Positions 28,712 to 37,439 of a DNA stretch of 64,000 nucleotides are shown here, one piece after another. Numbering within the stretch: position 1 is the first letter of the stretch; the number at the start of each line of letters is the position of its first letter. The translations under genes were made by a program, and so were the position numbers. The notes under the pieces are model-generated. The model did no database searches and had not been told where the DNA came from. It was given only the letters and a program-made list of their open reading frames with translations. This DNA comes from an uncultured delta proteobacterium (GTDB taxonomy: Bacteria; Desulfobacterota; RBG-13-43-22), in assembly GCA_963790475.1 (NCBI GenBank), contig CAWBOS010000010.1, positions 320,001 through 384,000 of the forward strand, given 5' to 3'.

Positions 28712-30303
28712 TTGATCAAAGGACCAAACCAGCTCGATGAACGTGTCCCGATAGAAGTCGGCGGGATTCAGGTCAACTTCTGCAAGAATCCACAGTGCCA
28801 GAACTTCGGAGTTCCGGCAAGTACCAAGAGACAGCCCAGAGGGAAAGGAGCAGAGGAACGTGGCCGGGATACTTATAATGTAGTTGGTTCAGGCCGGGGC
28901 ACGCCCATGCTACGGTGCTGTTTTTGCGGCCAATATCCAACGATAAAGAGTAACAAAGCCATTCATGAAGAGCTGAGCCGCTTTTGGAAGCCTTTTGAAC
29001 CCACGGCGATCCCGACCTGCCCAAACCAAGACTGCCCGAACCACCATATAGATACCGAGAAAGGCAAGACTCACTACCACTCATTCGGACGGACCAAAGC
29101 AGGATCTATACGCTATCGTTGCAAGGCCTGCGGCAGAACATTCATTACCGCTTCATCACCGACAATCCGGCACCGGAAACCCCACAAGAATGCTGTCATT
29201 TTCCGTCTTCTGGTCAACAAGGTACCTTTCCGTCGTACCTGCGAGGTGGAAGGGATCTCCATGCCGACTCTTTATCGGAAGATTGATTTTATTCATCGGC
29301 AGTGCCTTTCCTTTGCGGCTGAGCGGGAACGCAATCTTCCCACCATGCCTCTCGCCCGCCTTTATATCGGAGTTGATCGGCAAGACTATATGATCAACTG
29401 GTCGGACGCCAAGGACCGGAGGAACATCATTTTCCGGGCTGTCGGCAGTGCTGACAACACGACCGGTTATGTGCTCGGAGTGCATCTCAACTTTGATCCC
29501 TTAATGGATCCGGATCTTATAGAAAGGGATGCGATTGCCTCGGGTGATTACGAAGTAAAGCCGTCCTATAGACGATATGCCCGCCTGTGGCTCCGGCGCG
29601 ATTACCTAGAGGCCATCAAGAAGGCCCGAGCCCAAAGGTTTGGTGCCCATACAGGATCCTTGAGGGACAACATAGCTGCCACCTATCGGGATGCCGAAAA
29701 TAGGGATGATGTCGAAGTGTTCGAAAGGAGGGACGCTGCGACGCTTTTTATGTGCGGATCAACTCCGAGGCAACCATTGATAAAAAACGCCAGATCCTGG
29801 CAGATAATCGACGCCACATGGAGGCCATGAAGCACCAGAATCCTGACCTGAAGGATTGGCAGGTAAAACTTCTCATGATAAAAGAGAAGATGGCCCAGGT
29901 GGTCAACATTGGCACCTGGCAGGATCGCTGGGTGGAACACCCCTTCCCGAATATGGGAGAGCCCGATAAGGCCATGTGCTATCTGACGGATATCCAGGGG
30001 TATGATGAGGACCATCTCGCCTGGCTCTACAACAAGGCCAGCCTCCACGCTATTGACTGCTTCTTTATGCAGGTCCGGAGGAGATTGTCTTTGCTGGAGC
30101 GACCGATCAGCAGTTCGGCCAGCCCGGGTCGTCGTTGGTTTGGTTATGGCCCTTACAAACCGGTTATAGTCGGCAAACTACTGGACATCTTTCGTGTTTT
30201 CTATAATTATGTGGAAGTGGGGAAGAACAAACAAACCCCAGCTATGCGGCTGGGGCTGGCAAAGGGCAAGATAACTGTTGAGGACATTATCTATTACCAG
30301 TAA
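28712..30303 (+). pseudogene. Large IS1-like transposase with multiple zinc ribbons, split into two ORFs (probable internal deletion near 29740)
   Basis: CKNPQC, CCFC, CPNQDC, and InsA-like GRTKAGSIRYRCKAC plus HTH. C-terminal YNY...TPAMRLGL. The frame changes at gacgct-gc-gacgct. Confidence 0.7.
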
Positions 30304-30358
30304 TAAGGCTGCTCAGAATTTTTCGGTCATGTCTCCTTGCGGAAGATTTCTTTTTAAA

Positions 30359-30395
30359 AAAAAGGACCGTTGATATTGAATCAACTGTCCTTTTT
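30359..30395. terminator. Bidirectional terminator inside the IS right end
   Basis: AAAAAGGAC.GTTGAT / ATCAAC.GTCCTTTTT stem with A and T tracts. Confidence 0.6.
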
Positions 30396-30482
30396 ACTTT
30401 TCTTCAACACGTTAAGCTATCGGCTCGTCTAATTTGGCTCTGCCTTTTTTTATGCACATTTTCGAATGATAATTAACCTATG

Positions 30483-31119
30483 GTAAACCCCCGGCTGTGC
30501 CGGGGGACTCACAAAAGTTTGACAATTACGGGAATATATGAAAGCCCCTCTAACGTGAACCGCTCAAAATTCACAGAAAGAGAGGCTTTCAATGAGAAGC
30601 ACACAGAGTTTAAGTCATACGAAGTGGGAATGCAAATATCATTTAACCTGGATACCAAAATTTCGGAAAAAGGATTTATATGGGGAGCTTCGGAAACATT
30701 TAGGAGAAGCGATCCGAGAAATGGCACGGTAGAAGCGGAAGTGAAGTATTAGAAGGACATCTTATGTCGGATCATGTCCATATGCTTGTTTCGATTCCGC
30801 CCAAATATGCTGTTTCGCAAGTAGTGGGTTACATCAAGGGGAAAAGCGCAATTCATATTGCGAGAGAATTATTTGGGAAGAAAAGGAATTTCACTGGCGA
30901 AGAATTTTGGGCCAGAGGATACTATGTCAGCACAATAGGTAAGGATGAAGAGGCTATCCGTAAGTATATCAAAGAGCAGGAAAAAGAAGATCAGCGAATT
31001 GATCAATTAACGATGTTCTAAGTAAAGAGCCGCCACCTTTGAGGTGGCCCATAGGTTTTTCAACCGCTTTGAGCGGTTCACATATTTCAAGCCTCCGGCT
31101 TTGCCGGAGGTCTGGTGAC
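30483..31119 (+). mobile_element. IS200-type element (tnpA only), degenerate copy
   Basis: Left hairpin CCCCCGGC-TGT-GCCGGGGG. Right end CAAG + CCTCCGGC-TTT-GCCGGAGG + TCTGGTGAC. Homologous to 35189-35811. Confidence 0.9.
30592..31021 (+). pseudogene. tnpA: IS200/IS605 Y1 transposase TnpA with premature stop and frameshift
   Basis: SHTKWECKYH..WIPK then TAG at ~30730. DHVH (HUH), FWARGY and YIKEQ lie in a shifted frame. Confidence 0.88.
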
Positions 31120-33279
31120 GTGCGCCTGGCATGATGCACTGGCCGACCTTCCAGGAATGAACCTGGAAGTAAAACATCCACCGTTACCGGACGGAAGGAT
31201 AACGCCAACAAGGCAAGGGCATTCTCAGAAATGAGGAGTCCGGAGGAAGCATGAGGCAGAATCTGTGTACGTAGCGAACAGCGAACCGACTATATGGCCG
31301 TGGGGAGGAGGTCGAGTTGACGTGACTAAACGAGACCGGATATCCGGTGAACCGAACCGCTGTGAAGTTGGACGGGATACAGGGAGGTTGGTGCATCTTA
31401 CCCAGGGAAGCCCTCCTGCACTGGAACCTAATTGGCGTCAAGGATTTCATAAAACCGAACCGCGAAGGCGAACCCGAAGCGGGGTAGGGTGCAAAGGGTG
31501 GCAGATTCACGGGTAGTACTGAGGACTCAGGGCCGATGAAGCCTGGTAACAGAGCGAAGGATAAAACCCTGACGACCGGGAGAAGGAAAAGAAGGGAAGG
31601 AATCCGATAGAGAACCCACCGCTGGCGATGGTAAACAAACAACTTAAGGACCTATCCTGAAGCCTGGGCAGCCCAAAGATCGTCCTTGGGATGCGGGAAG
31701 CCGTGGACGAGAGGCGATGGAGACGACATTAGAGAGCCGACTTAGAGTTACGATGGTACAAGAAGGGACCAGAAAACCGAAGGGGGATGAACGAAACCCG
31801 CAAGAGGGTACCGGACGGGAAGAGACTTGGACGGTCAACAGGCATCCGGTCCCCAGCCCAAAGGGCTGCTCGTAACCCGGCAATCTTTAATGGAAGAGCA
31901 AGTCACGGAGGAAGTTGGAAGTGAAGGTTAGGGAAGCACTGGAAAGGGTCTACGAACCGAGACGACTGCGGGAGGCATGGCACCAGATTAAACGAAACGC
32001 CGGAGCAGCGGGAATAGACCGGATGACGGTAGAGGAGTTCGAAAAGCGAGAAAGAGAGCTTTTGCAGCTCATCGGCGAGAAGCTGAAAGCGGGCACCTAC
32101 CGTTTCAAACCTGCCAGAAGAGTTCTGATTCCCAAGGAAGGCAGTAATAAGATGCGTCCCCTTGGGATACCGGTGGTCATGGATCGAATAATCAGCCAGA
32201 GTATCAATTTGGTATTTGAGGGGTTGTTCGACCCGGCTTTTACGAAGTCCAATTTTGGATTTCGTCGAGGCCACAGCCAGCATCAGGCGATTAGACATGT
32301 TCAGGGGATAGTGGAAGATGGATATGAATGGGCGGCATCGATAGACTTGAAGAGTTTCTTTGATGAAATCCCGCATGAACTGATATTAACACTTATACGG
32401 CGGAAGATAGCCGATGAGAGGCTGGTAACGCTGATTGCAAGAGCGTTAAGGGCCGGTATCGTTATTGATGGAGAATATCAGGAAACACCCAAGGGATGTC
32501 CACAAGGATCTCCGCTCTCCCCGATGCTATCGAACATTGTTTTGAATGAACTGGACTGGGAATTGGAAAAGAGAGGGCACCGGTACGGTCGATGGGCTGA
32601 TGACTTCCTGATTTTACTTAAATCAGAAAGAGCGGCTGAACGGATCATGGAGGGAATAACGGCGTACCTGGAAGGGAAGCTGAGACTTCCGGTTAACCGG
32701 AAAAAGAGCCAAGTAGCTCCGATTAAAGACATTCCTTTCCTGGGGTTTCAAATACTCAGGGGGAAAATCCGAGTCAGCGACAAGGCCCGGGTTAAATTTA
32801 AGAATAGGATACGAGAACTAACCCGGAGAAACAATCCCTTATCTATGAACCAGGTGATCCAGGAACTCAATGAATACTTACGAGGGTGGATAGCCTACTT
32901 TCGGGTCCAAGAGTTTAGCAAACCATTAGTGGAACTCGATGGCTGGATTCGGAGTCGGCTCAGATCCATGCAACTAAAGAAATGGAAAAACCCCCGCAAA
33001 TTTCAAAGGATGCTAAACCGGTCCGACTATACAGGCCGGGAAACGAACCGAGTCTGGGTCAAGATGAACAAATGGCAATCGGTCAATCGACGGGAGGTTC
33101 GTTGTGTTATGAATCTCCAATGGTTCAGAAGGCAAAGGTTGACCTTTCTAGGTGACTTCATCCAGAGGCAACTACCTCTTGAACTGAAATTCAGTCGCTA
33201 ATCGAAGAGCGGCTTACCTGGCCGGTACGAGCCGTTCTGTTGGGAGGGGGTAGGCCTTCTCGGCTACCTCCTACCAGAT
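31120..33279 (+). mobile_element. Group II intron (IIC-like 5' end, no endonuclease domain)
   Basis: 5' GTGCGCCTGGCATG. Domain V AGAGCGGCT-TACC-TGGCC-GGTA-CG-AGCCGTTCT at ~33206-33238. DVI GGGAGGGGGTAG...CTACCTCCTACCAGAT gives the 3' end. RT ORF inside. Confidence 0.92.
31915..33201 (+). CDS. ltrA: Group II intron reverse transcriptase/maturase
   Basis: GAAGIDRMT, RPLGIP..DR, SNFGFR, IDLKSFFD, GCPQGSPLSP, WADD, FLGF, LRGWIAYF (X domain). No HNH. Confidence 0.95.
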   Translation: MEVKVREALERVYEPRRLREAWHQIKRNAGAAGIDRMTVEEFEKRERELLQLIGEKLKAGTYRFKPARRVLIPKEGSNKMRPLGIPVVMDRIISQSINLVFEGLFDPAFTKSNFGFRRGHSQHQAIRHVQGIVEDGYEWAASIDLKSFFDEIPHELILTLIRRKIADERLVTLIARALRAGIVIDGEYQETPKGCPQGSPLSPMLSNIVLNELDWELEKRGHRYGRWADDFLILLKSERAAERIMEGITAYLEGKLRLPVNRKKSQVAPIKDIPFLGFQILRGKIRVSDKARVKFKNRIRELTRRNNPLSMNQVIQELNEYLRGWIAYFRVQEFSKPLVELDGWIRSRLRSMQLKKWKNPRKFQRMLNRSDYTGRETNRVWVKMNKWQSVNRREVRCVMNLQWFRRQRLTFLGDFIQRQLPLELKFSR

Positions 33280-33390
33280 TCTTAATTTTTGGGACTGGCA
33301 AATTAAAACATTAGTAGGTGTACTCGCAGATTTTCGATAGGAACACATTTTGAAATATCCGTGAGGGAGGATTTTGTTTAGTTGATTTAG

Positions 33391-34067
33391 AAACCCCCGC
33401 CCTAAGGGCGGGGTCATGTGGACTGGCTATGCCGGTCCCGAATGGGCTTGGCTGAAAGCCCACCCACTGCTATTTTTTCCATCGAGTTGTTGCCGCAACA
33501 TCGAAAGAAAGGAGATAGCAGTGAGTAGATTCCGAAAATTATCACATACCATATGGCATTGTCAGTATCATATTGTCTGGGTTCCGAAATATCGCTATCA
33601 GATATTGGCTGGGAACATCGGGGAAACGATGGCCAGCGGGATCCAAGCGATTTGCGGGTATGCGGGTTGTGAAGTTAACGAGTTGAATGTTCAAAAGGAT
33701 CATATTCATCTGGTAGCCATGGTTCCGCCCGAAGTATCGATATCGGACTTGATGGGGCGGGTCAAGGGTCAGACATCGATGAAAATGTTTAACCAGTATC
33801 GGCAGTTGCGGAAGAAGCCGTATTGGGGTAATCATTTTTGGACCCCGGGGTATTGTGTGGATACCGTTGGAATGGATGAGGAACTGATCCGGAAGTATGT
33901 CCGGTATCAAGAGGAAAAAGAAAAACAGTTCGAACAATTGCACTTGAATTTGTAGATCATCCATAACGCGGCACAACTCGGAAGCCCTGCCTCCTCAGGG
34001 GGCAGGGCCATTGCCCCCCTATGGGGGGCCCAGTTAAAGCCACGCCCTATGGGCGTGGATTATTTAC
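33391..34067 (+). mobile_element. IS200-type element (second type)
   Basis: TTAG|AAAC + left hairpin CCCCGCCC-TAA-GGGCGGGG. Right end AAAG + CCACGCCC-TAT-GGGCGTGG + ATTATTTAC. Left boundary could alternatively be 33382. Confidence 0.85.
33521..33955 (+). CDS. tnpA: IS200/IS605 Y1 transposase TnpA
   Basis: GTG start after aaggag. SHTIWHCQYHIVWVPKYR, DHIH, HFWTPGY, YVRYQ. Confidence 0.93.
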   Translation: MSRFRKLSHTIWHCQYHIVWVPKYRYQILAGNIGETMASGIQAICGYAGCEVNELNVQKDHIHLVAMVPPEVSISDLMGRVKGQTSMKMFNQYRQLRKKPYWGNHFWTPGYCVDTVGMDEELIRKYVRYQEEKEKQFEQLHLNL

Positions 34068-34231
34068 TCCTTCCTGAAAGTTTCGCATGATAAGTTCCAC
34101 AAAAAAACACCTATTCCCCGATGGAGCTTCATATGACCCTGACCTAAATCATAAGTCCAACCCCCGCCTCATCATAATTTTTAGTTGCAAATTTTTCTCT
34201 TTAAAGCGATGATTATTGCTTGGAGAGTCCA

Positions 34232-35092
34232 ATGGCTATTTTAATCGACAGAAGAAACCATCCAAGATACCCGATTAACCTTCCTGTTTTTATCTTCTAC
34301 GCAGAAAAGAGGGCTGTGGCCCACACTCTGGATGTGGGACTGGGAGGAATGAAAATATATACTGACAAGGTTTTCCCTTCCCGACGAGGTTTTTTATTTC
34401 ATTTAGTTCTGCAACGAAAAACCATTTGGGTTACGGGACGATTCATTTTCAAACAAACCCAGCCCGAATTGGTGAATTTCTCCTGTATTAAGTTTGAAGA
34501 TATTACGAAAGAATGCTTTCTTGATCTGAAGGAATTTCTCTCGCACTCGCAAAATTTATTGAAGAAAGAGTCCCTTGATATGGAGGTTCGAATCAGGGAA
34601 AAGGAGACTGCATTGGCGAAAGCCAATGAATTGCTGAAGGTTGAAACTGAAAGAAGGAAGAGAGAGGAGCAGGTTATCAAGGAGGTGGGGGAGCGACTTG
34701 GGTATTTATTATCGCTATTTTCGGATGATCGAGAAAAAAGAATAAGAATGACCGTCCGAGGGCTTGATGACCGTATTGAGGCCTTGCTATTGGCGATCAC
34801 TAATGGGCTTAAAAATCTTTACCTCCTTTTGAAGGAGGGGAATGTTGCTGGCCAGATCTCTTTTGAGCAGATCATTTTCAGCATTCAAAACAATTATAAA
34901 GAGATCCGGAGGGTTCTGGAGAACTTAGGGCCATCCATTTTGGATGAGCTCGGAATATTGGGAACTATTGGCTTGCAATGCCAGGAGCTTCAGAATATTT
35001 ATTATGGAATCCAGAACGAAAAGGAAGAGGATGTCCTGGAAGATACCGGGTCCGGGAAAATTCTATATATACAAGGCCGAAAAGCCACATGA
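34232..35092 (+). CDS. PilZ domain protein with coiled coil and degenerate NarX-type kinase remnant
   Basis: RRNHPRYP (RxxxR) and DVGLGG. ERRKREE coiled coil. EIRRVLENLGPSILDELGI is HisKA_3-like. No His box and no ATPase domain. Confidence 0.7.
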   Translation: MAILIDRRNHPRYPINLPVFIFYAEKRAVAHTLDVGLGGMKIYTDKVFPSRRGFLFHLVLQRKTIWVTGRFIFKQTQPELVNFSCIKFEDITKECFLDLKEFLSHSQNLLKKESLDMEVRIREKETALAKANELLKVETERRKREEQVIKEVGERLGYLLSLFSDDREKRIRMTVRGLDDRIEALLLAITNGLKNLYLLLKEGNVAGQISFEQIIFSIQNNYKEIRRVLENLGPSILDELGILGTIGLQCQELQNIYYGIQNEKEEDVLEDTGSGKILYIQGRKAT

Positions 35093-35188
35093 CTACTTTC
35101 TGAACGCCTAAAGCCTCATCTTTTTAAATAATAAAAGACTTTAAGTGGTAGTCAACGCAAGTGGTTTAATTTTCATAATTTCTTTTAG

Positions 35189-35811
35189 GTAAACCCCCGG
35201 CTCGGCCGGGGGACTCCCAGAGTTTGACAATTCCGGGAGAATAAGAAAGCCTCCAACCTGTGAACCGCTCAAGTTTACAGAGGAGGAGGCTTTCCATGAA
35301 AAAGGAACAAAGTTTAACCCATACGAAGTGGGAATGCAAATACCATATTGTCTGGATACCGAAGTATCGGAAGAAAAAATTATACGGGCAAGTACGAAAA
35401 TATTTAGGGGCGCTATTCAAGGACTTGGCCATCCAGCGTGAATGTACGATTATCGAAGGGCATTTACAACCGGACCATGTCCACATTTTAATCTCGATAC
35501 CTCCGAAATATGCTGTTTCGCAAGTAGTTGGGTATCTCAAAGGCAAAAGCGCCATTCAAGTAGCCCGAGCCTATTTGGGGCGAAGAAAGAATTTCAGTGG
35601 CCAGAATTTTTGGGCTCGGGGTTATTTTGTTTCAACCGTGGGCAAAGACGAAGATGAAACACGGTTATATATAAAGACTCAAGAAAAGGAAGATCAACGT
35701 CTCGATCAACTCCTTTTGTTCGATGAAGAACCACCTTCAGGTGGTCAATAAATAATCCGCTTTGAGCGGTTCACAATTTCAAGCCTCCGGCTTTGCCGGA
35801 GGTCTGGTGAC
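35189..35811 (+). mobile_element. IS200-type element (intact relative of 30483-31119)
   Basis: TTAG|GTAAAC + left hairpin. The right end TTTCAAGCCTCCGGCTTTGCCGGAGGTCTGGTGAC is identical to that of the first copy. Confidence 0.92.
35296..35751 (+). CDS. tnpA: IS200/IS605 Y1 transposase TnpA
   Basis: THTKWECKYHIVWIPKYR, DHVH, FWARGYF, YIKTQ. Confidence 0.93.
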   Translation: MKKEQSLTHTKWECKYHIVWIPKYRKKKLYGQVRKYLGALFKDLAIQRECTIIEGHLQPDHVHILISIPPKYAVSQVVGYLKGKSAIQVARAYLGRRKNFSGQNFWARGYFVSTVGKDEDETRLYIKTQEKEDQRLDQLLLFDEEPPSGGQ

Positions 35812-35999
35812 TTTTTACCAATCAAACGGTATGAATTTTATAGGAAACTAATAAATATAGGACGCAATAAAATTTAACTAGGCGGGATTTTGGGTGAGCC
35901 TGATAACCTCTCGGCTATCTAAATCTCCCAGCACTAATCCGAACCAAAGTTTGGCTATCATATTTTTTTAAGAGGAACTGATCTATTTAGGAGGACGTT

Positions 36000-37439
36000 A
36001 TGGAAAAACACGACGAAGGGATGGAGAAGCTTTTAACTATTGAAAAAACCATAACCGGAATGATTGAGTTACACAGTCTGGTTGTTGAATTGAAGGAATT
36101 GGAATCTCAGCAACAGAGGATCATTGAAGACCTTCAGAGGAATGTTAACAAATACAGGACCTTTCTCCAAAATATTCCTATAAGACTCTTTATCAAGAAT
36201 ATGGATCTATCCTATATATACTGCAATCAGATTTATGCGGATGACCTAAAAAAACAACCCGAAGAAATTGCCGGAAACACGGATCGGGACTTCTTCCCGT
36301 CCGATGTGGCTGTAAAATTCATAGGAGACGACAAAAGGGTTCTCGAATCCGGTGAGATTAAAAATATCGAAGACAAATATCTCATAGGGGGTCAGGAGTC
36401 TATCGTTCATATGGTCAAATCTCCTCTCCGGGATGAAAACGGGAACATTGTTGGCTTGATGGGCATATTCTGGGATATCACAGAAGAGAAACACAAAGAA
36501 GAAGAAGCCATGAAATCCCATGCTCTTCTCGAAGGTCTTTTATCCAACCGAACAGATGAACTGGAAAAAACAACCCAGCGACTTCAATTGGAAAATTCAG
36601 AACGCCAACAAGTGGAGGAGAGGCTCAGACAAACGGATGAAATCCGTCAGACCATTTTTGAAGGGACGGGTGCAGCCCTCGCCGTCCTCAGTGAAGAGGA
36701 CATGATCATACTGCAGGCCAACAATAAACTTGAGGAAGTCCTGGGAATCTATCGGGAAGAGATGGAAAACAAGAAATCCCTGTGGGAATTCATCGCCGAT
36801 GGTGATTTAGAAAGAATAAAGGAGCAGTGTCTGATCGTCAGATCGGGTTCGGATGCCAATCCCGGGGGCAGGGAATATCGGTTCGTTGACCAGCAAGGGA
36901 ATGGGAAAGTCATCTTTGTGACCATGGCCCTGATTCCGGGTACCAGGAGAATTACGGCCTCTTTTCTCGATGTCACTGAACGCAACCATATGCAGAAGGC
37001 CCTCCAGCGGTCGGAAGAAAAACATCGATGGTTGGTCGAAAAGGCCCCTGTGGCCATCGGCGTGATTCAGAAGGGTGTATTTAAATTTATCAACCTCAAG
37101 GTCATTGAGATATTCGGATATTCACAAGAGGAGCTCGCTTCACGGCCAGTGTTGGAATTCATTCATACCGATGACAGGGGGATGGACAAACTCCTGTTCA
37201 AAGAATCAAACGATGGGGAACTTCCTCACCTCTTTTTCTTCAAGATCGTCCACAAGGATGGAACTATCCGATGGGTTGAGGATAGGGTGGACTTGATTCA
37301 TTGGGAAGGAAGCCCAGCGACCATAAATTTTTTCACTGATATCACTTTACGAAAGCAGGCCGAGGACGAATTGCTAAGTTCCATCCAGCCCTTTCGCGCC
37401 CTGATTGAAAAGGCACAAAGGGTCATGACTACTGAGTAA
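36000..37439 (+). CDS. Stand-alone multi-PAS sensor protein (3 PAS/PAC, no output domain)
   Basis: PAC ends WDITEEK, LDVTERN and TDITLRK. The ORF ends ~25 aa after the last PAC. Confidence 0.85.
   Translation: MEKHDEGMEKLLTIEKTITGMIELHSLVVELKELESQQQRIIEDLQRNVNKYRTFLQNIPIRLFIKNMDLSYIYCNQIYADDLKKQPEEIAGNTDRDFFPSDVAVKFIGDDKRVLESGEIKNIEDKYLIGGQESIVHMVKSPLRDENGNIVGLMGIFWDITEEKHKEEEAMKSHALLEGLLSNRTDELEKTTQRLQLENSERQQVEERLRQTDEIRQTIFEGTGAALAVLSEEDMIILQANNKLEEVLGIYREEMENKKSLWEFIADGDLERIKEQCLIVRSGSDANPGGREYRFVDQQGNGKVIFVTMALIPGTRRITASFLDVTERNHMQKALQRSEEKHRWLVEKAPVAIGVIQKGVFKFINLKVIEIFGYSQEELASRPVLEFIHTDDRGMDKLLFKESNDGELPHLFFFKIVHKDGTIRWVEDRVDLIHWEGSPATINFFTDITLRKQAEDELLSSIQPFRALIEKAQRVMTTE

What the first reader, a model, noticed from the sequence alone, without database searches (positions are those of the whole stretch)
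31085..33290. Group II intron inserted precisely at the TnpA right-end cleavage site of an IS200 element, with an identical empty target 4.7 kb away
Seen: the intron 5' GTGCG (31120) directly follows TTTCAAGCCTCCGGCTTTGCCGGAGGTCTGGTGAC. The same string ends the sister IS at 35811, where it is followed by unrelated DNA, so the IS boundary and the intron insertion point coincide to the nucleotide. Established: in IS608, guide tetramers at the foot of the hairpin specify cleavage (AAAG->TTAC, GAAT->TCAA). The same pairing gives CAAG->TGnC, matching TGAC here. IIC introns home after stem-loops in ssDNA, and I recall IS605-end-targeting IIC introns being mentioned, so novelty is uncertain. Inference: the intron is a hyperparasite that uses IS200 right-end hairpins as multicopy safe landing pads without damaging the IS end. 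A candidate EBS1 GTCA (31437-31440) is complementary to TGAC.
Basis: partly seen in the sequence, partly recalled or inferred. Interest (0 to 1): 0.82.

Follow-up and report, generated by a model that had tools for sequence, protein, structure and literature searches.

The report
Group II intron targeting IS200 ends
A self-splicing mobile intron sits exactly at the last base of a small transposon, and its relatives in many other bacteria do the same, so this intron lineage appears to use the hairpin ends of IS200 transposons as its landing sites.

Summary
A 2,160-nt class-C-like group II intron (31120-33279) starts at the base after the last nucleotide (…TGAC, 31119) of an IS200 element. Three sister IS copies end at the same nucleotide.

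The genome's only other copy of this intron sits exactly after the last base (…TTAC) of a different IS200, whose six copies all end there.

In a related genome, 7 of 9 intron 5' junctions are at IS200-type right ends. Four full-length sister ends and one miniature end there are empty, and all five have T at +1.

Across 55 unique 5' junctions of this intron clade (RT 65-100% identical):
- 25 have a same-strand Y1 transposase gene just upstream.
- 14 more have a right-end-like hairpin obeying the IS608 guide/cleavage-site pairing rule.
- 16 lie after other hairpins or after none detected.

The rule holds at 36 of 47 hairpin sites (permutation mean 7.2, maximum 18).

I read this as a IIC lineage specialised on IS200 right ends, comparable to the IIC-attC lineage. 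I found no description of it in seven searches of the held papers. Mobility, splicing and any effect on the IS are untested.

The parts
30470..30473 (+). TAAT, the inferred left cleavage/target tetranucleotide (C_L) flanking IS-A
   Evidence: All IS-B copies in G000 (3) and the four uninterrupted IS-B-like left ends read in G001 (the fifth locus there, L021, is interrupted) have TAAT followed by 8 nt before GGTAAACCCCC, and unrelated DNA to the left. The 4 nt 5' of the left hairpin (TAAA) predict TAnT under the IS608 pairing rule. For single-copy IS-A this is inferred by analogy.
30474..31119 (+). IS-A, an IS200-group element (about 646 bp) with a frameshifted tnpA. It is about 72-73% identical to IS-B overall, but its last 35 nt are identical to IS-B.
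   Evidence: blastn against IS-B copies. Y1_Tnp hit on the 30764-31018 frame, E 1.2e-22. The three-frame translation shows M at 30592, a stop at 30730-30732 and continuation in another frame. Related contigs lack one base at 30729/30730 (table 4). The left boundary is inferred.
30488..30506 (+). Left-end hairpin of IS-A (8-bp stem, 3-nt loop)
   Evidence: DNA fold. The same hairpin is present in IS-B copies.
31088..31091 (+). CAAG, the inferred right guide tetranucleotide (G_R) 5' of the hairpin foot
   Evidence: Read from the sequence. It pairs with TGAC under the g1:s2, g2:s1, g4:s4 rule.
31092..31110 (+). Right-end hairpin (IP_R-like): 8-bp G+C-rich stem with a TTT loop
   Evidence: DNA fold, z -3.06 for the 86-nt stretch. 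Identical in all IS-B copies.
31116..31119 (+). TGAC, the last 4 nt of the IS. Inferred to be the TnpA right cleavage site (C_R), and also serves as the intron's IBS1.
   Evidence: Three sister copies in G000 and 10 in G001 end here. It lies 9 nt from the hairpin foot to the junction. In IS608, C_R lies 10 nt 3' of the foot (PMC3201880, passages).
31120..33279 (+). Group II intron, class-C-like, 2,160 nt; one of two copies in the genome
   Evidence: The 3' end is placed after ...CCAGAT, which gives the usual AY terminus. The next base is T in 52 of 54 unique ends and is read as exon +1.
31222..31398 (+). Core of intron domain I (Rfam group-II-D1D4-3 match)
   Evidence: 63.5 bits against a gathering score of 32, E 3.8e-11, full model 1-170.
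31322..31325 (+). Candidate EBS1 (GUGA), preceded by the conserved C 31321 (delta-like), in the terminal loop of the D1d-type hairpin 31310-31337
   Evidence: Position and the C-EBS1 arrangement match the E. rectale IIC structure (EBS1 A184-G187 after C183; PMC10190682, passages). The hairpin is part of the Rfam alignment. The first base is A only where exon -1 is T (3 of 3); otherwise it is G with C (51) or T (12). This is weak evidence: there is no covariation at -3 to -6.
31915..33201 (+). Intron-encoded reverse transcriptase/maturase, 428 aa from TTG 31915 (the true start may be GTG 31921); no endonuclease domain
   Evidence: RVT_1 4.1e-33 and GIIM 2.4e-20. GsI-IIC RT 3.1e-86.
33206..33277 (+). 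Intron domain V (33206-33238) and domain VI (33240-33277) with a bulged A at 33273
   Evidence: RNA fold -39.7 kcal/mol, z -3.35. Conserved in relatives, with compensatory changes visible in the domain VI stems.
33280..33280 (+). T at +1 of the 3' exon, the inferred IBS3
   Evidence: T follows ...CCAGAT in 52 of 54 unique 3' ends. All 5 empty IS-B-type ends in G001 and all 3 in G000 have T here. In the E. rectale IIC complex, IBS3 is a dT paired to an A (PMC10190682, passages).
33382..34067 (+). IS-C, a second and unrelated IS200-group element (tnpA ORF 33416-33955). It is an unoccupied copy of the IS that carries the other intron copy at C10:893438-894089.
   Evidence: Y1_Tnp 3e-38. TnpA is 36% identical to IS-B TnpA. 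Six copies share ends and all stop at ...GGATTATTTAC. Guide AAAG gives TTAC. Target TTAG at 33378-33381 is predicted from left guide AAAC. The end is at 34067.
35180..35811 (+). IS-B1, an intact sister IS with an empty right end (TGAC 35808-35811, T at 35812); tnpA 35296-35751
   Evidence: Y1_Tnp 6.2e-37. Three copies at 99.5-100% identity. Flanks.

Best explanation
This is a mobile class-C-like (IIC) group II intron without an endonuclease domain. It belongs to a lineage whose preferred DNA target is the right end of IS200-group insertion sequences.

The target consists of:
- the subterminal G+C-rich hairpin (about 8 bp, 3-nt loop);
- a fixed distance of 8-9 nt from the hairpin foot to the insertion point, comprising a 4-5-nt linker and the terminal tetranucleotide T-N-A-Y, which TnpA uses as its right cleavage site;
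- a T at +1 supplied by the flank.

The intron RNP reverse-splices into the single-stranded, hairpin-folded top strand exactly where TnpA would cut, that is, after the last IS base.

Recognition is inferred to work as in the solved E. rectale IIC complex:
- shape recognition of the DNA stem by the maturase and D1d/D4a;
- a short EBS1-IBS1 helix (GUGA, 31322-31325, against T-N-A-Y);
- a single EBS3-IBS3 pair with the +1 T;
- cDNA priming by the replication fork.

Because the intron lies wholly outside the IS, all cis elements of the IS (guide, hairpin, cleavage site) stay intact. The IS should still excise without the intron. Every new IS insertion then creates a fresh empty target.

What is shown: the anatomy, the exact junctions, the multi-lineage association and the covariation that identifies the 5' exons as genuine TnpA right ends.

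What is inferred: the reverse-splicing mechanism, which parts of the RNP read the hairpin, the EBS assignments, and the neutrality for the IS.
For: 1. Both genomic copies sit at exact right ends of two unrelated IS200 elements.
- One is after ...TGAC of IS-A. Three sister copies define that end.
- The other is after ...TTAC of IS-C. Six copies define that end.

2. In related genome G001, 9 intron 5' junctions were found.
- 6 are at full IS-B-like right ends, 1 at a TnpA-less miniature right end, and 2 after ordinary gene-end hairpins.
- Five of the occupied IS copies were checked and have unrelated left flanks. The eight G001 3'-end loci all have different 3' flanks. These are therefore independent insertions.
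- 4 of 10 full ends and 1 of 2 miniature ends are empty.

3. Clade-wide, 55 unique 5' sites had at least 45 nt upstream.
- 25 have a same-strand Y1 transposase gene ending at most 260 nt upstream. Of these, 7 of 7 frames tested by Pfam are Y1_Tnp; the L104 case is only a weak fragment.
- 14 more have a hairpin and satisfy the guide/cleavage rule at all three positions.

4. The rule g1:s2, g2:s1, g4:s4 holds at 36 of 47 hairpin sites.
- In 20,000 permutations the mean was 7.2 and the maximum 18.
- There are 12 different consistent guide/site combinations.
- g1-s2 is complementary in 38 of 47 and g4-s4 in 42 of 47.
- The foot-to-junction distance is 8 nt in 29 sites, 9 in 12, 7 in 5 and 10 in 1.

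5. In the 66 unique exon/intron pairs, -2 is A in 63, -1 is C or T in 66, and -4 is T in 55 (my count from the table). T-4 and A-2 are the bases that interact within IS608 cleavage sites (PMC3201880, passages).

6. Within-genome controls.
- Only 8 of 90 G+C-rich (231 in all) unoccupied hairpin+TNAY|T sites in G000 are IS200 ends. Multicopy REP-like hairpins that fit the loose motif are unoccupied.
- The genome's other intron family is at IS200 ends in 0 of 5 copies.

7. The RT is closest to structurally characterised IIC RTs. In the E. rectale IIC complex the target is stem-loop, spacer, 4-nt IBS1 and dT IBS3 (PMC10190682, passages).

8. Orientation. All IS and intron copies between 0 and 920 kb of contig C10 are on the + strand, where GC skew is positive. 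The one minus-strand IS copy lies in the negative-skew half. This fits the lagging-strand template, as reported for IIC introns (PMC8919778, passages) and for the IS200/IS605 family (PMC7923331, passages).
Against: - The preference is not exclusive. 16 of 55 unique sites show no IS200 signature. These include clear host-gene 3' ends: TPR, MFS and SLT genes.
- The identical intron uses both kinds of site in G001.
- No lineage-specific covariation between intron domain I and exon positions -3 to -6 was found. So there is no sequence evidence that the RNA has adapted to particular IS ends.
- The EBS1 assignment rests on positional analogy and one covarying lineage.
- With GUGA, the TGAC target has a G-G mismatch at -3.
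- The IS-C right end also scores as terminator-like in a loose scan. The class boundary with 'terminator' targets is therefore soft.
- The definition of the hairpin foot (outermost C:G pair) was chosen after seeing the data. A first, different definition gave only 17 of 53 full fits.
- Sites are not phylogenetically independent.
- In G000 only 2 of about 10 suitable IS ends are occupied.
- The host IS-A is a pseudogene, so activity here may be ancient.
- No intron-less or spliced joint was seen (contigs only, so this is not informative about absence).
- G000 is reported with 9.68% contamination, although both copies lie on one 2-Mb contig.
Confidence: 0.8

Rival explanations
1. This is ordinary IIC behaviour with no specialisation. 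The intron inserts after any suitable DNA stem-loop followed by a short IBS1. IS200 right ends are over-represented only because they are multicopy, strongly folding, terminator-like hairpins that happen to end in T-N-A-Y.
For: - The same intron sits after gene-end hairpins (L009, L012, L048).
- 16 of 55 unique sites lack an IS signature.
- There is no covariation at -3 to -6.
- The IS-C right end scores as terminator-like.
- IIC introns are described as lying after terminators 'or other inverted repeats' (PMC1702495, abstract).
Against: - 39 of 55 unique sites, drawn from many IS lineages (TnpA 33-100% identical to the two queries), are IS200-type.
- In G000, IS200 ends are 8 of 90 to 231 generic unoccupied candidate sites, yet they hold 2 of 2 copies. 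Other multicopy hairpin repeats fitting the motif are empty.
- In G001, 7 of 9 junctions are at IS200-type ends.
- The narrow 8-9-nt spacing and the 8-bp/3-nt-loop geometry recur.
Confidence: 0.15
2. The causality is reversed. The IS200 elements inserted next to pre-existing introns, because the intron's 5' exon ended in a tetranucleotide that the IS uses as its target.
For: IS200/IS605 elements insert 3' of a specific tetranucleotide (PMC3201880, passages). The inferred IS-B target TAAT also fits T-N-A-Y. An IS landing exactly at an exon-intron junction is therefore mechanistically conceivable.
Against: - It would require a separate pre-existing intron at each of the 6+1 occupied sites in G001 and at both G000 sites.
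- It would also require this for dozens of IS lineages with different targets.
- The sequence left of the occupied IS copies shows no shared hairpin or intron-type 5' exon.
- Empty and occupied IS copies are otherwise identical.
- Intron copies within a genome are 99.8-100% identical, as expected for recent intron spread.
Confidence: 0.03
3. The IS and the intron move together as one composite unit, by TnpA or by recombination, so the junction was made once and then copied.
For: Six IS-plus-intron units occur in G001.
Against: - The intron lies outside the TnpA-defined right end.
- The sequence after the intron differs at every G001 3'-end locus and at both G000 copies.
- Two unrelated IS carry the same intron in G000.
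- Many unrelated IS lineages carry diverged introns.
- The intron's own 3' end (AGAT) does not match the cleavage site predicted by the IS guide.
Confidence: 0.02

Closest known systems
Group IIC (bacterial class C) introns that insert after intrinsic terminators (B.h.I1, GsI-IIC, the E. rectale intron)
   Same: - An endonuclease-less RT/maturase of about 420-430 aa, closest to GsI-IIC and E.r. RTs.
- Small domain I, with EBS1 in the terminal D1d loop.
- Target is a DNA stem-loop, short spacer, 3-4-nt IBS1 and a single IBS3, which is T in both (PMC10190682 and PMC1702495, passages).
- Occasional insertion after ordinary gene-end hairpins.
   Different: - The preferred stem-loop is the subterminal hairpin of IS200 right ends rather than terminators.
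- The insertion point coincides with the inferred TnpA cleavage position.
- There is no T-run after the IS-A/IS-B hairpin.
- About 795 nt lie between the 5' end and the ORF, which is longer than I recall for typical IIC introns (recalled, not measured here).
IIC-attC introns (for example S.ma.I2), a IIC lineage that inserts at integron attC sites
   Same: This is a IIC sub-lineage that has switched from terminators to the structured single-stranded recombination site of another mobile-DNA system, a site that is recognised as a folded hairpin by its own recombinase (PMC4424553 passages; PMC3001079 abstract).
   Different: The target here is the IS200 right end cut by a Y1 HUH transposase, not attC cut by an integron integrase. 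No integron is in the neighbourhood. Relatedness of the RTs to the attC lineage was not tested.
T. elongatus F4 group II introns inserted in ISEL1 (IS200 family)
   Same: A group II intron repeatedly occupies a conserved site of an IS200-family element (PMC2882425, one passage).
   Different: That paper describes its intron families as having diverged in DNA target specificity, and places the F4 site 'in' the element. I recall these introns as chloroplast-like IIB introns homing by long base-pairing, but I did not check that. Here the site is the outer boundary of the IS, read largely as a hairpin, and it spans many IS lineages.
RmInt1 in ISRm2011-2, and other IS-borne group II introns
   Same: An intron uses a multicopy IS as a harmless homing site (PMC4238363 seen as a search listing and abstract only; the rest recalled).
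   Different: As I recall it, RmInt1 is a IIB3/class D intron with a roughly 20-nt sequence-specific site inside the IS. That would make the target a sequence rather than a structure, and the insertion would interrupt the IS.
IStrons (group I intron fused to an IS200/IS605 element)
   Same: An intimate association of a self-splicing intron with an IS200/IS605-family element at one of its ends (PMC4227781 abstract; PMC3073962 passage).
   Different: There a group I ribozyme and the IS form one transposing unit moved by the IS machinery. Here a group II retroelement moves by itself and stays outside the IS.

Membership tests
Group II intron, class C / IIC | Conserved group II ribozyme core: 5' GUGYG, domain I core, domain V, domain VI with a bulged A, 3' AY | tested here: met
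   GTGCG at 31120. Rfam group-II-D1D4-3, 63.5 bits. Domains V and VI fold with bulged A 33273. The 3' end is ...AT. The Rfam domain V/VI model itself gave no hit at E<=1.
Group II intron, class C / IIC | Intron-encoded RT with an X/maturase domain, lacking the En (HNH) domain, and grouping with class C proteins | tested here: met
   RVT_1 and GIIM only, 428 aa. The best solved relatives are IIC RTs: GsI-IIC 3.1e-86, E.r. 6.1e-76, against LtrA 5.6e-39. No formal phylogeny against reference classes was made.
Group II intron, class C / IIC | No EBS2; short EBS1 in the D1d terminal loop; EBS3-IBS3 single pair | tested here: inconclusive
   Candidate EBS1 GUGA at 31322-31325, with one covarying lineage. 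No covariation for positions -5 and -6 that would indicate an EBS2-type pairing. T at +1 in 52 of 54 ends. EBS3 was not located.
Group II intron, class C / IIC | Inserted a few nucleotides downstream of a DNA stem-loop | tested here: met
   47 of 55 unique sites have a C:G-footed hairpin 7-10 nt upstream of the junction. Both G000 copies do.
IS200/IS605 family, IS200 group (the host elements) | Single Y1 (HUH) transposase gene and no tnpB | tested here: met
   Y1_Tnp in IS-B (6.2e-37), IS-C (3e-38) and the IS-A remnant (1.2e-22). The HUH-type H-V-H and C-terminal Y-I-K-x-Q motifs are visible in the translations; the motif names are recalled. TnpA ends 17-203 nt from the junction in the 25 TnpA-bearing sites, which leaves no room for tnpB.
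IS200/IS605 family, IS200 group (the host elements) | Subterminal hairpins at both ends, no terminal inverted repeats, and insertion 3' of a fixed tetranucleotide without duplication | tested here: met
   Hairpins fold. All IS-B copies are preceded by TAAT and all IS-C copies by TTAG, with no flanking direct repeats seen.
IS200/IS605 family, IS200 group (the host elements) | Cleavage tetranucleotides specified by 4-nt guides 5' of each hairpin foot | tested here: met
   Right end: CAAG/TGAC and AAAG/TTAC. Left end: TAAA/TAAT and AAAC/TTAG. 36 of 47 relatives' sites fit. The IS608 guide and cleavage sequences come from PMC3597680 and PMC3201880 (passages). The base-by-base pairing scheme is recalled and is consistent with both IS608 ends. 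Actual cleavage was not tested.
IIC-attC intron lineage | Insertion into attC sites of integron cassettes | tested here: not met
   The 5' exons are IS200 right ends or gene-end hairpins. No integron features were seen around either G000 copy. I did not run a dedicated integron search.

The most novel reading that the evidence does not exclude
This is a distinct IIC lineage that has adopted the right-end transpososome substrate of IS200 elements as its homing site. That would be a fourth target specificity for bacterial group II introns, beside homing sites, terminators and attC.

The RNP would read the same features that TnpA's DNA architecture keeps invariant: the folded hairpin, the fixed linker, T-4, A-2 and a pyrimidine at -1. 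It would insert at the very phosphodiester that TnpA cuts.

The IS would then move on without the intron and keep generating new empty sites. The two elements would form a stable parasite-on-parasite pair that travels together across phyla.
Probability: 0.55. Interest if true: 0.75.

Novelty: new variant of a known kind. Interest (0 to 1): 0.68.

Why it matters
A 2015 review lists three target specificities for bacterial group II introns: homing sites, terminator motifs and attC sites (PMC4424553, passages). A lineage that prefers IS200 right ends would add a fourth.

It would also be a second example, after attC, of IIC introns adopting the folded single-stranded DNA site of another mobile element.

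It shows two unrelated machines, an HUH transposase and an intron RNP, converging on the same hairpin, spacing and phosphodiester.

The dozens of natural IS ends with different stems, linkers and tetranucleotides form a ready-made mutational series. They could be used to work out how IIC RNPs read DNA shape.

Practically, such junctions blur IS boundaries in annotation and break metagenome assemblies. In G001, five of the nine 5' junctions lie on contigs that end inside the intron.

Tried and rejected
1. It lies outside the domain I model match, and it is not conserved in near-identical introns with the same target.

2. A scan of all domain I 5-mers for pairing with each copy's own exon gave nothing decisive. 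Mutual information between exon positions -1 to -6 and 345 intron positions gave no Watson-Crick-consistent signal.

3. My first automatic hairpin-foot definition over-extended the stems and gave only 17 of 53 full rule fits. I replaced it with 'outermost C:G pair'. This choice was made after seeing the data. One site (G000a) still had to be set by hand.

4. The outgroup control failed. The Paenibacillus-type relatives (RT 36-38% identical) have no recognisable 5' motif by my regular expression. I therefore have no within-study control from other IIC clades and rely on the literature for that.

5. The empty-site search did not help. Synteny with a same-genus genome stops at window 30428, before the IS, so no pre-insertion sequence was obtained.

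6. Laying public runs used contigs only. There was no joint across 31119/33280, no spliced form, and no intron at 35811. These absences say nothing either way. RNA-library contigs 90-95% alike cover the ribozyme parts, but this does not show transcription of this copy.

Supplementary files were not consulted. Supplements of the group II intron surveys could list insertion sites that bear on novelty.

8. Four papers were not held:
- Robart 2007, under PMC1871835.
- Mohr 2018, under PMC6082379.
- Simon 2008, under PMC2525955.
- The database papers, for which I made no look-up.
Any of these could mention IS200-type inverted repeats. The novelty claim rests on searches of the held library only.

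9. I did not run structure prediction, complex prediction, or the large protein searches, because they would not change the reading.

Full report
**What is in the window**

Reading 30200-36100 confirms the finding. The 35-nt string occurs at 31085-31119 and at 35777-35811 and nowhere else in the window. GTGCG starts at 31120, and unrelated sequence follows 35811.

The region holds three IS200-group elements within 5.4 kb, all on the + strand:
- IS-A (30474-31119), whose tnpA is frameshifted. M is at 30592 and a stop at 30730-30732, and the reading continues in another frame. Related contigs lack one base at 30729/30730.
- IS-C (33382-34067).
- IS-B1 (35180-35811), with an intact 151-aa Y1 transposase.

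Between IS-A and IS-C lies a group II intron:
- An Rfam domain I match at 31222-31398 (63.5 bits).
- A 428-aa RVT_1+GIIM ORF with no endonuclease domain.
- Domains V and VI with a bulged A.

Its RT is closest to the structurally studied IIC enzymes: GsI-IIC 3.1e-86 and E. rectale 6.1e-76.

**Boundaries**

The window is C10:320001-384000 of a 6.3-Mb, 20-contig assembly.

The intron has exactly two copies, which are 99.8% identical over 2,161 nt. Their flanks diverge immediately before GTGCG and after ...CCAGATT.

IS-B has three copies at 99.5-100% identity, all ending at ...GGTCTGGTGAC and followed by different DNA. IS-A is only about 72-73% identical to them overall but shares the terminal 35 nt.

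The second intron copy lies directly after ...GGATTATTTAC. That is the shared last base of six copies of IS-C, whose TnpA is 36% identical to that of IS-B.

So 2 of 2 copies sit at the exact right end of two unrelated IS200 elements.

The base after ...CCAGAT is T in 52 of 54 unique 3' ends of the clade (56 pattern matches, 2 of them spurious). The next position is not conserved. All empty IS-B-type ends also carry T at +1.

I therefore place the intron's end at 33279 (an AY terminus) and read T 33280 as the exon's IBS3. This matches the E. rectale complex, where IBS3 is a dT (PMC10190682, passages).

**Relatives**

RT-based scans returned 60 loci from genomes and 80 from metagenomes (203 relatives were found and the best 80 kept).

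An nhmmer profile of the intron's first 330 nt located 100 hits. After adding the two G000 copies, there were 82 junctions with the model starting at position 1-2.

In the same-genus genome G001/G019, 9 intron 5' ends were found:
- 6 follow full IS-B-like right ends.
- 1 follows a TnpA-less miniature right end.
- 2 follow hairpins at the 3' ends of a TPR gene and an MFS gene.

Five of the occupied IS copies were checked and have unrelated left flanks. The eight G001 3'-end loci all have different 3' flanks. Four of 10 full ends and 1 of 2 miniature ends are empty.

After removing duplicates, and sites with under 45 nt of 5' exon, 55 unique sites remain:
- 25 have a same-strand Y1 transposase gene ending at most 260 nt upstream (tblastn). 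Of these, 7 of 7 frames tested are Pfam Y1_Tnp. Two further frames were dropped because of a stop codon, and L104 is only a weak fragment.
- 14 have a right-end-like hairpin that obeys the guide rule. Six of these have too little upstream sequence to look for tnpA. Eight have at least 300 nt upstream and no tnpA.
- 9 have a hairpin that does not obey the rule.
- 7 have no C:G-footed hairpin by my definition.

One more degenerate copy (L017) also abuts an IS200 right end with tnpA; it is not in the count.

**The guide rule**

In IS608 the cleavage tetranucleotides are specified by 4-nt guides 5' of each hairpin foot. These are C_L TTAC, 19 nt 5' of the left hairpin, and C_R TCAA, 10 nt 3' of the right hairpin. 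The guides are G_L AAAG and G_R GAAT (PMC3201880 and PMC3597680, passages).

The pairing scheme g1:s2, g2:s1, g4:s4 is my recollection of the crystal-structure work, and it fits both IS608 ends.

Applied here it gives CAAG/TGAC for IS-A and IS-B and AAAG/TTAC for IS-C. At the left ends it gives TAAA/TAAT and AAAC/TTAG, which are exactly the tetranucleotides that precede all copies.

Over the 47 unique hairpin sites:
- 36 fit at all three positions. In 20,000 permutations the mean was 7.2 and the maximum 18.
- 12 distinct consistent guide/site pairs occur, for example CATA/TGAT, GATG/TCAC, TAAG/TAAC, AATA/TTAT and AGGA/CTAT.
- The foot-to-junction distance is 8 or 9 nt in 41 of 47.

This covariation independently marks the 5' exons as genuine TnpA right ends. 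It shows that the intron begins at the predicted cleavage bond in many IS lineages.

Two caveats apply. The foot definition was fixed after a first definition performed poorly. The sites are also not phylogenetically independent.

**How the intron may read the site**

By position the EBS1 should be the terminal loop of the D1d-type hairpin 31310-31337. A conserved C (31321) is followed there by GUGA (31322-31325). This is the same arrangement as C183 and A184-G187 in the E. rectale intron (PMC10190682, passages).

GUGA can pair with Y-1, A-2 and T-4. Among 66 unique exon/intron pairs, -1 is C or T in 66, -2 is A in 63 and -4 is T in 55. The first EBS1 base is A only where -1 is T (3 of 3). Otherwise it is G, with C in 51 and with T in 12 (my count).

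Positions -3 to -6 show no covariation. Specificity must therefore come largely from the hairpin and its spacing, as in the solved IIC complex.

T-4 and A-2 are also the bases that interact within IS608 cleavage sites (PMC3201880, passages). This would explain why IS200 ends as a class fit one short EBS1.

**Controls within the genome**

A loose scan for unoccupied perfect hairpin (at least 7 bp) + 7-10 nt + TNAY|T sites finds 231, of which 90 have G+C-rich stems. Only 8 of these are IS200 ends, and several multicopy REP-like hairpins that fit are unoccupied.

The genome's other group II intron family (5 copies, RT 33% identical) is at IS200 ends in 0 of 5 copies.

GC skew of contig C10 is positive from 0 to about 920 kb and negative beyond. 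Both intron copies, and all the IS-A/B/C copies that lie below about 920 kb, are on the + strand. One further + strand IS-C copy lies at 971 kb, where the skew is near zero. The single minus-strand IS-B copy is in the negative half. This is consistent with the lagging-strand template.

**Evidence against, and limits**

- The preference is not exclusive: 16 of 55 sites show no IS signature.
- The IS-C right end also scores as terminator-like in a loose scan, whereas the IS-A/B hairpin does not.
- No empty orthologous site was found.
- Laid public contigs show no spliced or intron-less joint. One 783-nt contig bridges the junction, possibly from the source sample.
- Only 5 of 21 genomes of the order, all in one genus, carry the intron.
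- Nothing here shows current activity.
- G000 is listed with 9.68% contamination.

**Comparison and novelty**

IIC introns are known to insert after terminators or other inverted repeats, and one lineage inserts at attC sites (PMC1702495 abstract; PMC4424553, PMC8643678 and PMC8919778 passages). A 2015 review counts three target specificities (PMC4424553).

Group II introns inside IS elements are known:
- T. elongatus F4 introns in an IS200-family element (PMC2882425, one passage).
- A P. putida intron at REP sequences in 2 of 9 copies (PMC1525189, table).

Seven full-text searches found no description of IIC introns at IS200 right ends. Key subscription papers and all supplements were not available.

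I rate it a new variant of a known kind.

**Verdict**

- The main interpretation is supported at the level of pattern.
- The EBS1 detail is rejected.
- The fitness claims are untested.
- Interest: 0.68.

Noticed in passing
window 30592-31021: The tnpA of IS-A is broken by a frameshift near 30729-30730, with a stop at 30730-32. Its ends (left hairpin, guide, right hairpin, TGAC) are intact and match those of the intact IS-B, so it could be moved in trans.
   Followed up: partly
window 30474-35811: Three IS200-group elements of two unrelated types plus the intron lie within 5.4 kb, all on the same strand. A PilZ-domain gene (34220-35092) sits between IS-C and IS-B1.
   Followed up: partly
G000 C10:476944-477244, C1:91671-92015, C15:6438-6740, C13:12948-13197, C11:181125-181189: These are short elements with IS-B-like left and right ends but no tnpA (miniature, PATE-like derivatives). 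Two of them present empty TGAC|T targets.
   Followed up: partly
G000 C10:896435-898417 and four other copies (C13, C15): A second, unrelated group II intron family has five copies at over 99.9% identity (RT 33% identical). Their 5' flanks share a short sequence rather than a hairpin. One copy lies 185 nt downstream of intron copy 2.
   Followed up: partly
L124:989-2101: Tandem arrangement: IS200 right end, then a short ORF-less intron copy, then a second full intron. The second intron is inserted right after the domain VI hairpin and ...CCAGAT of the first, so an intron 3' end is used as a target.
   Followed up: no
L017:3484-4100; G021 C159 (L158); run X3 joint 31271/33198: These are internally deleted intron derivatives. 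L017 keeps about 45 nt of the 5' end fused into the RT ORF and still abuts an IS200 right end. Another keeps 143 nt of the 5' end. A metagenome contig skips 1,926 nt, removing the ORF.
   Followed up: no
L140:1100-1168: One relative is inserted 9 nt after a hairpin that looks like an IS-B left-end hairpin (GGTAAACCCCCGGC...), not a right end. The guide rule is not met there.
   Followed up: no
L021:1244-2795 (same place as L064): In G001 one IS-B-like tnpA is itself interrupted by about 1.5 kb of inserted DNA. The IS still carries the intron at its right end.
   Followed up: no
G000, many sites, e.g. C10:1132340, C15:586353, C12:1405463: Two families of multicopy REP-like hairpin repeats are present, one with an ATTCCGGC...GCCGGAAT stem and one with a CCCGCA...TGCGGG stem. 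Both fit the loose hairpin+TNAY|T motif, but none is occupied by the intron.
   Followed up: no
G000 contig C10, about 920 kb: GC skew changes sign near 920 kb of the 2.0-Mb contig, like a replication terminus or origin. Intron copy 2 (894 kb) lies close to it.
   Followed up: no
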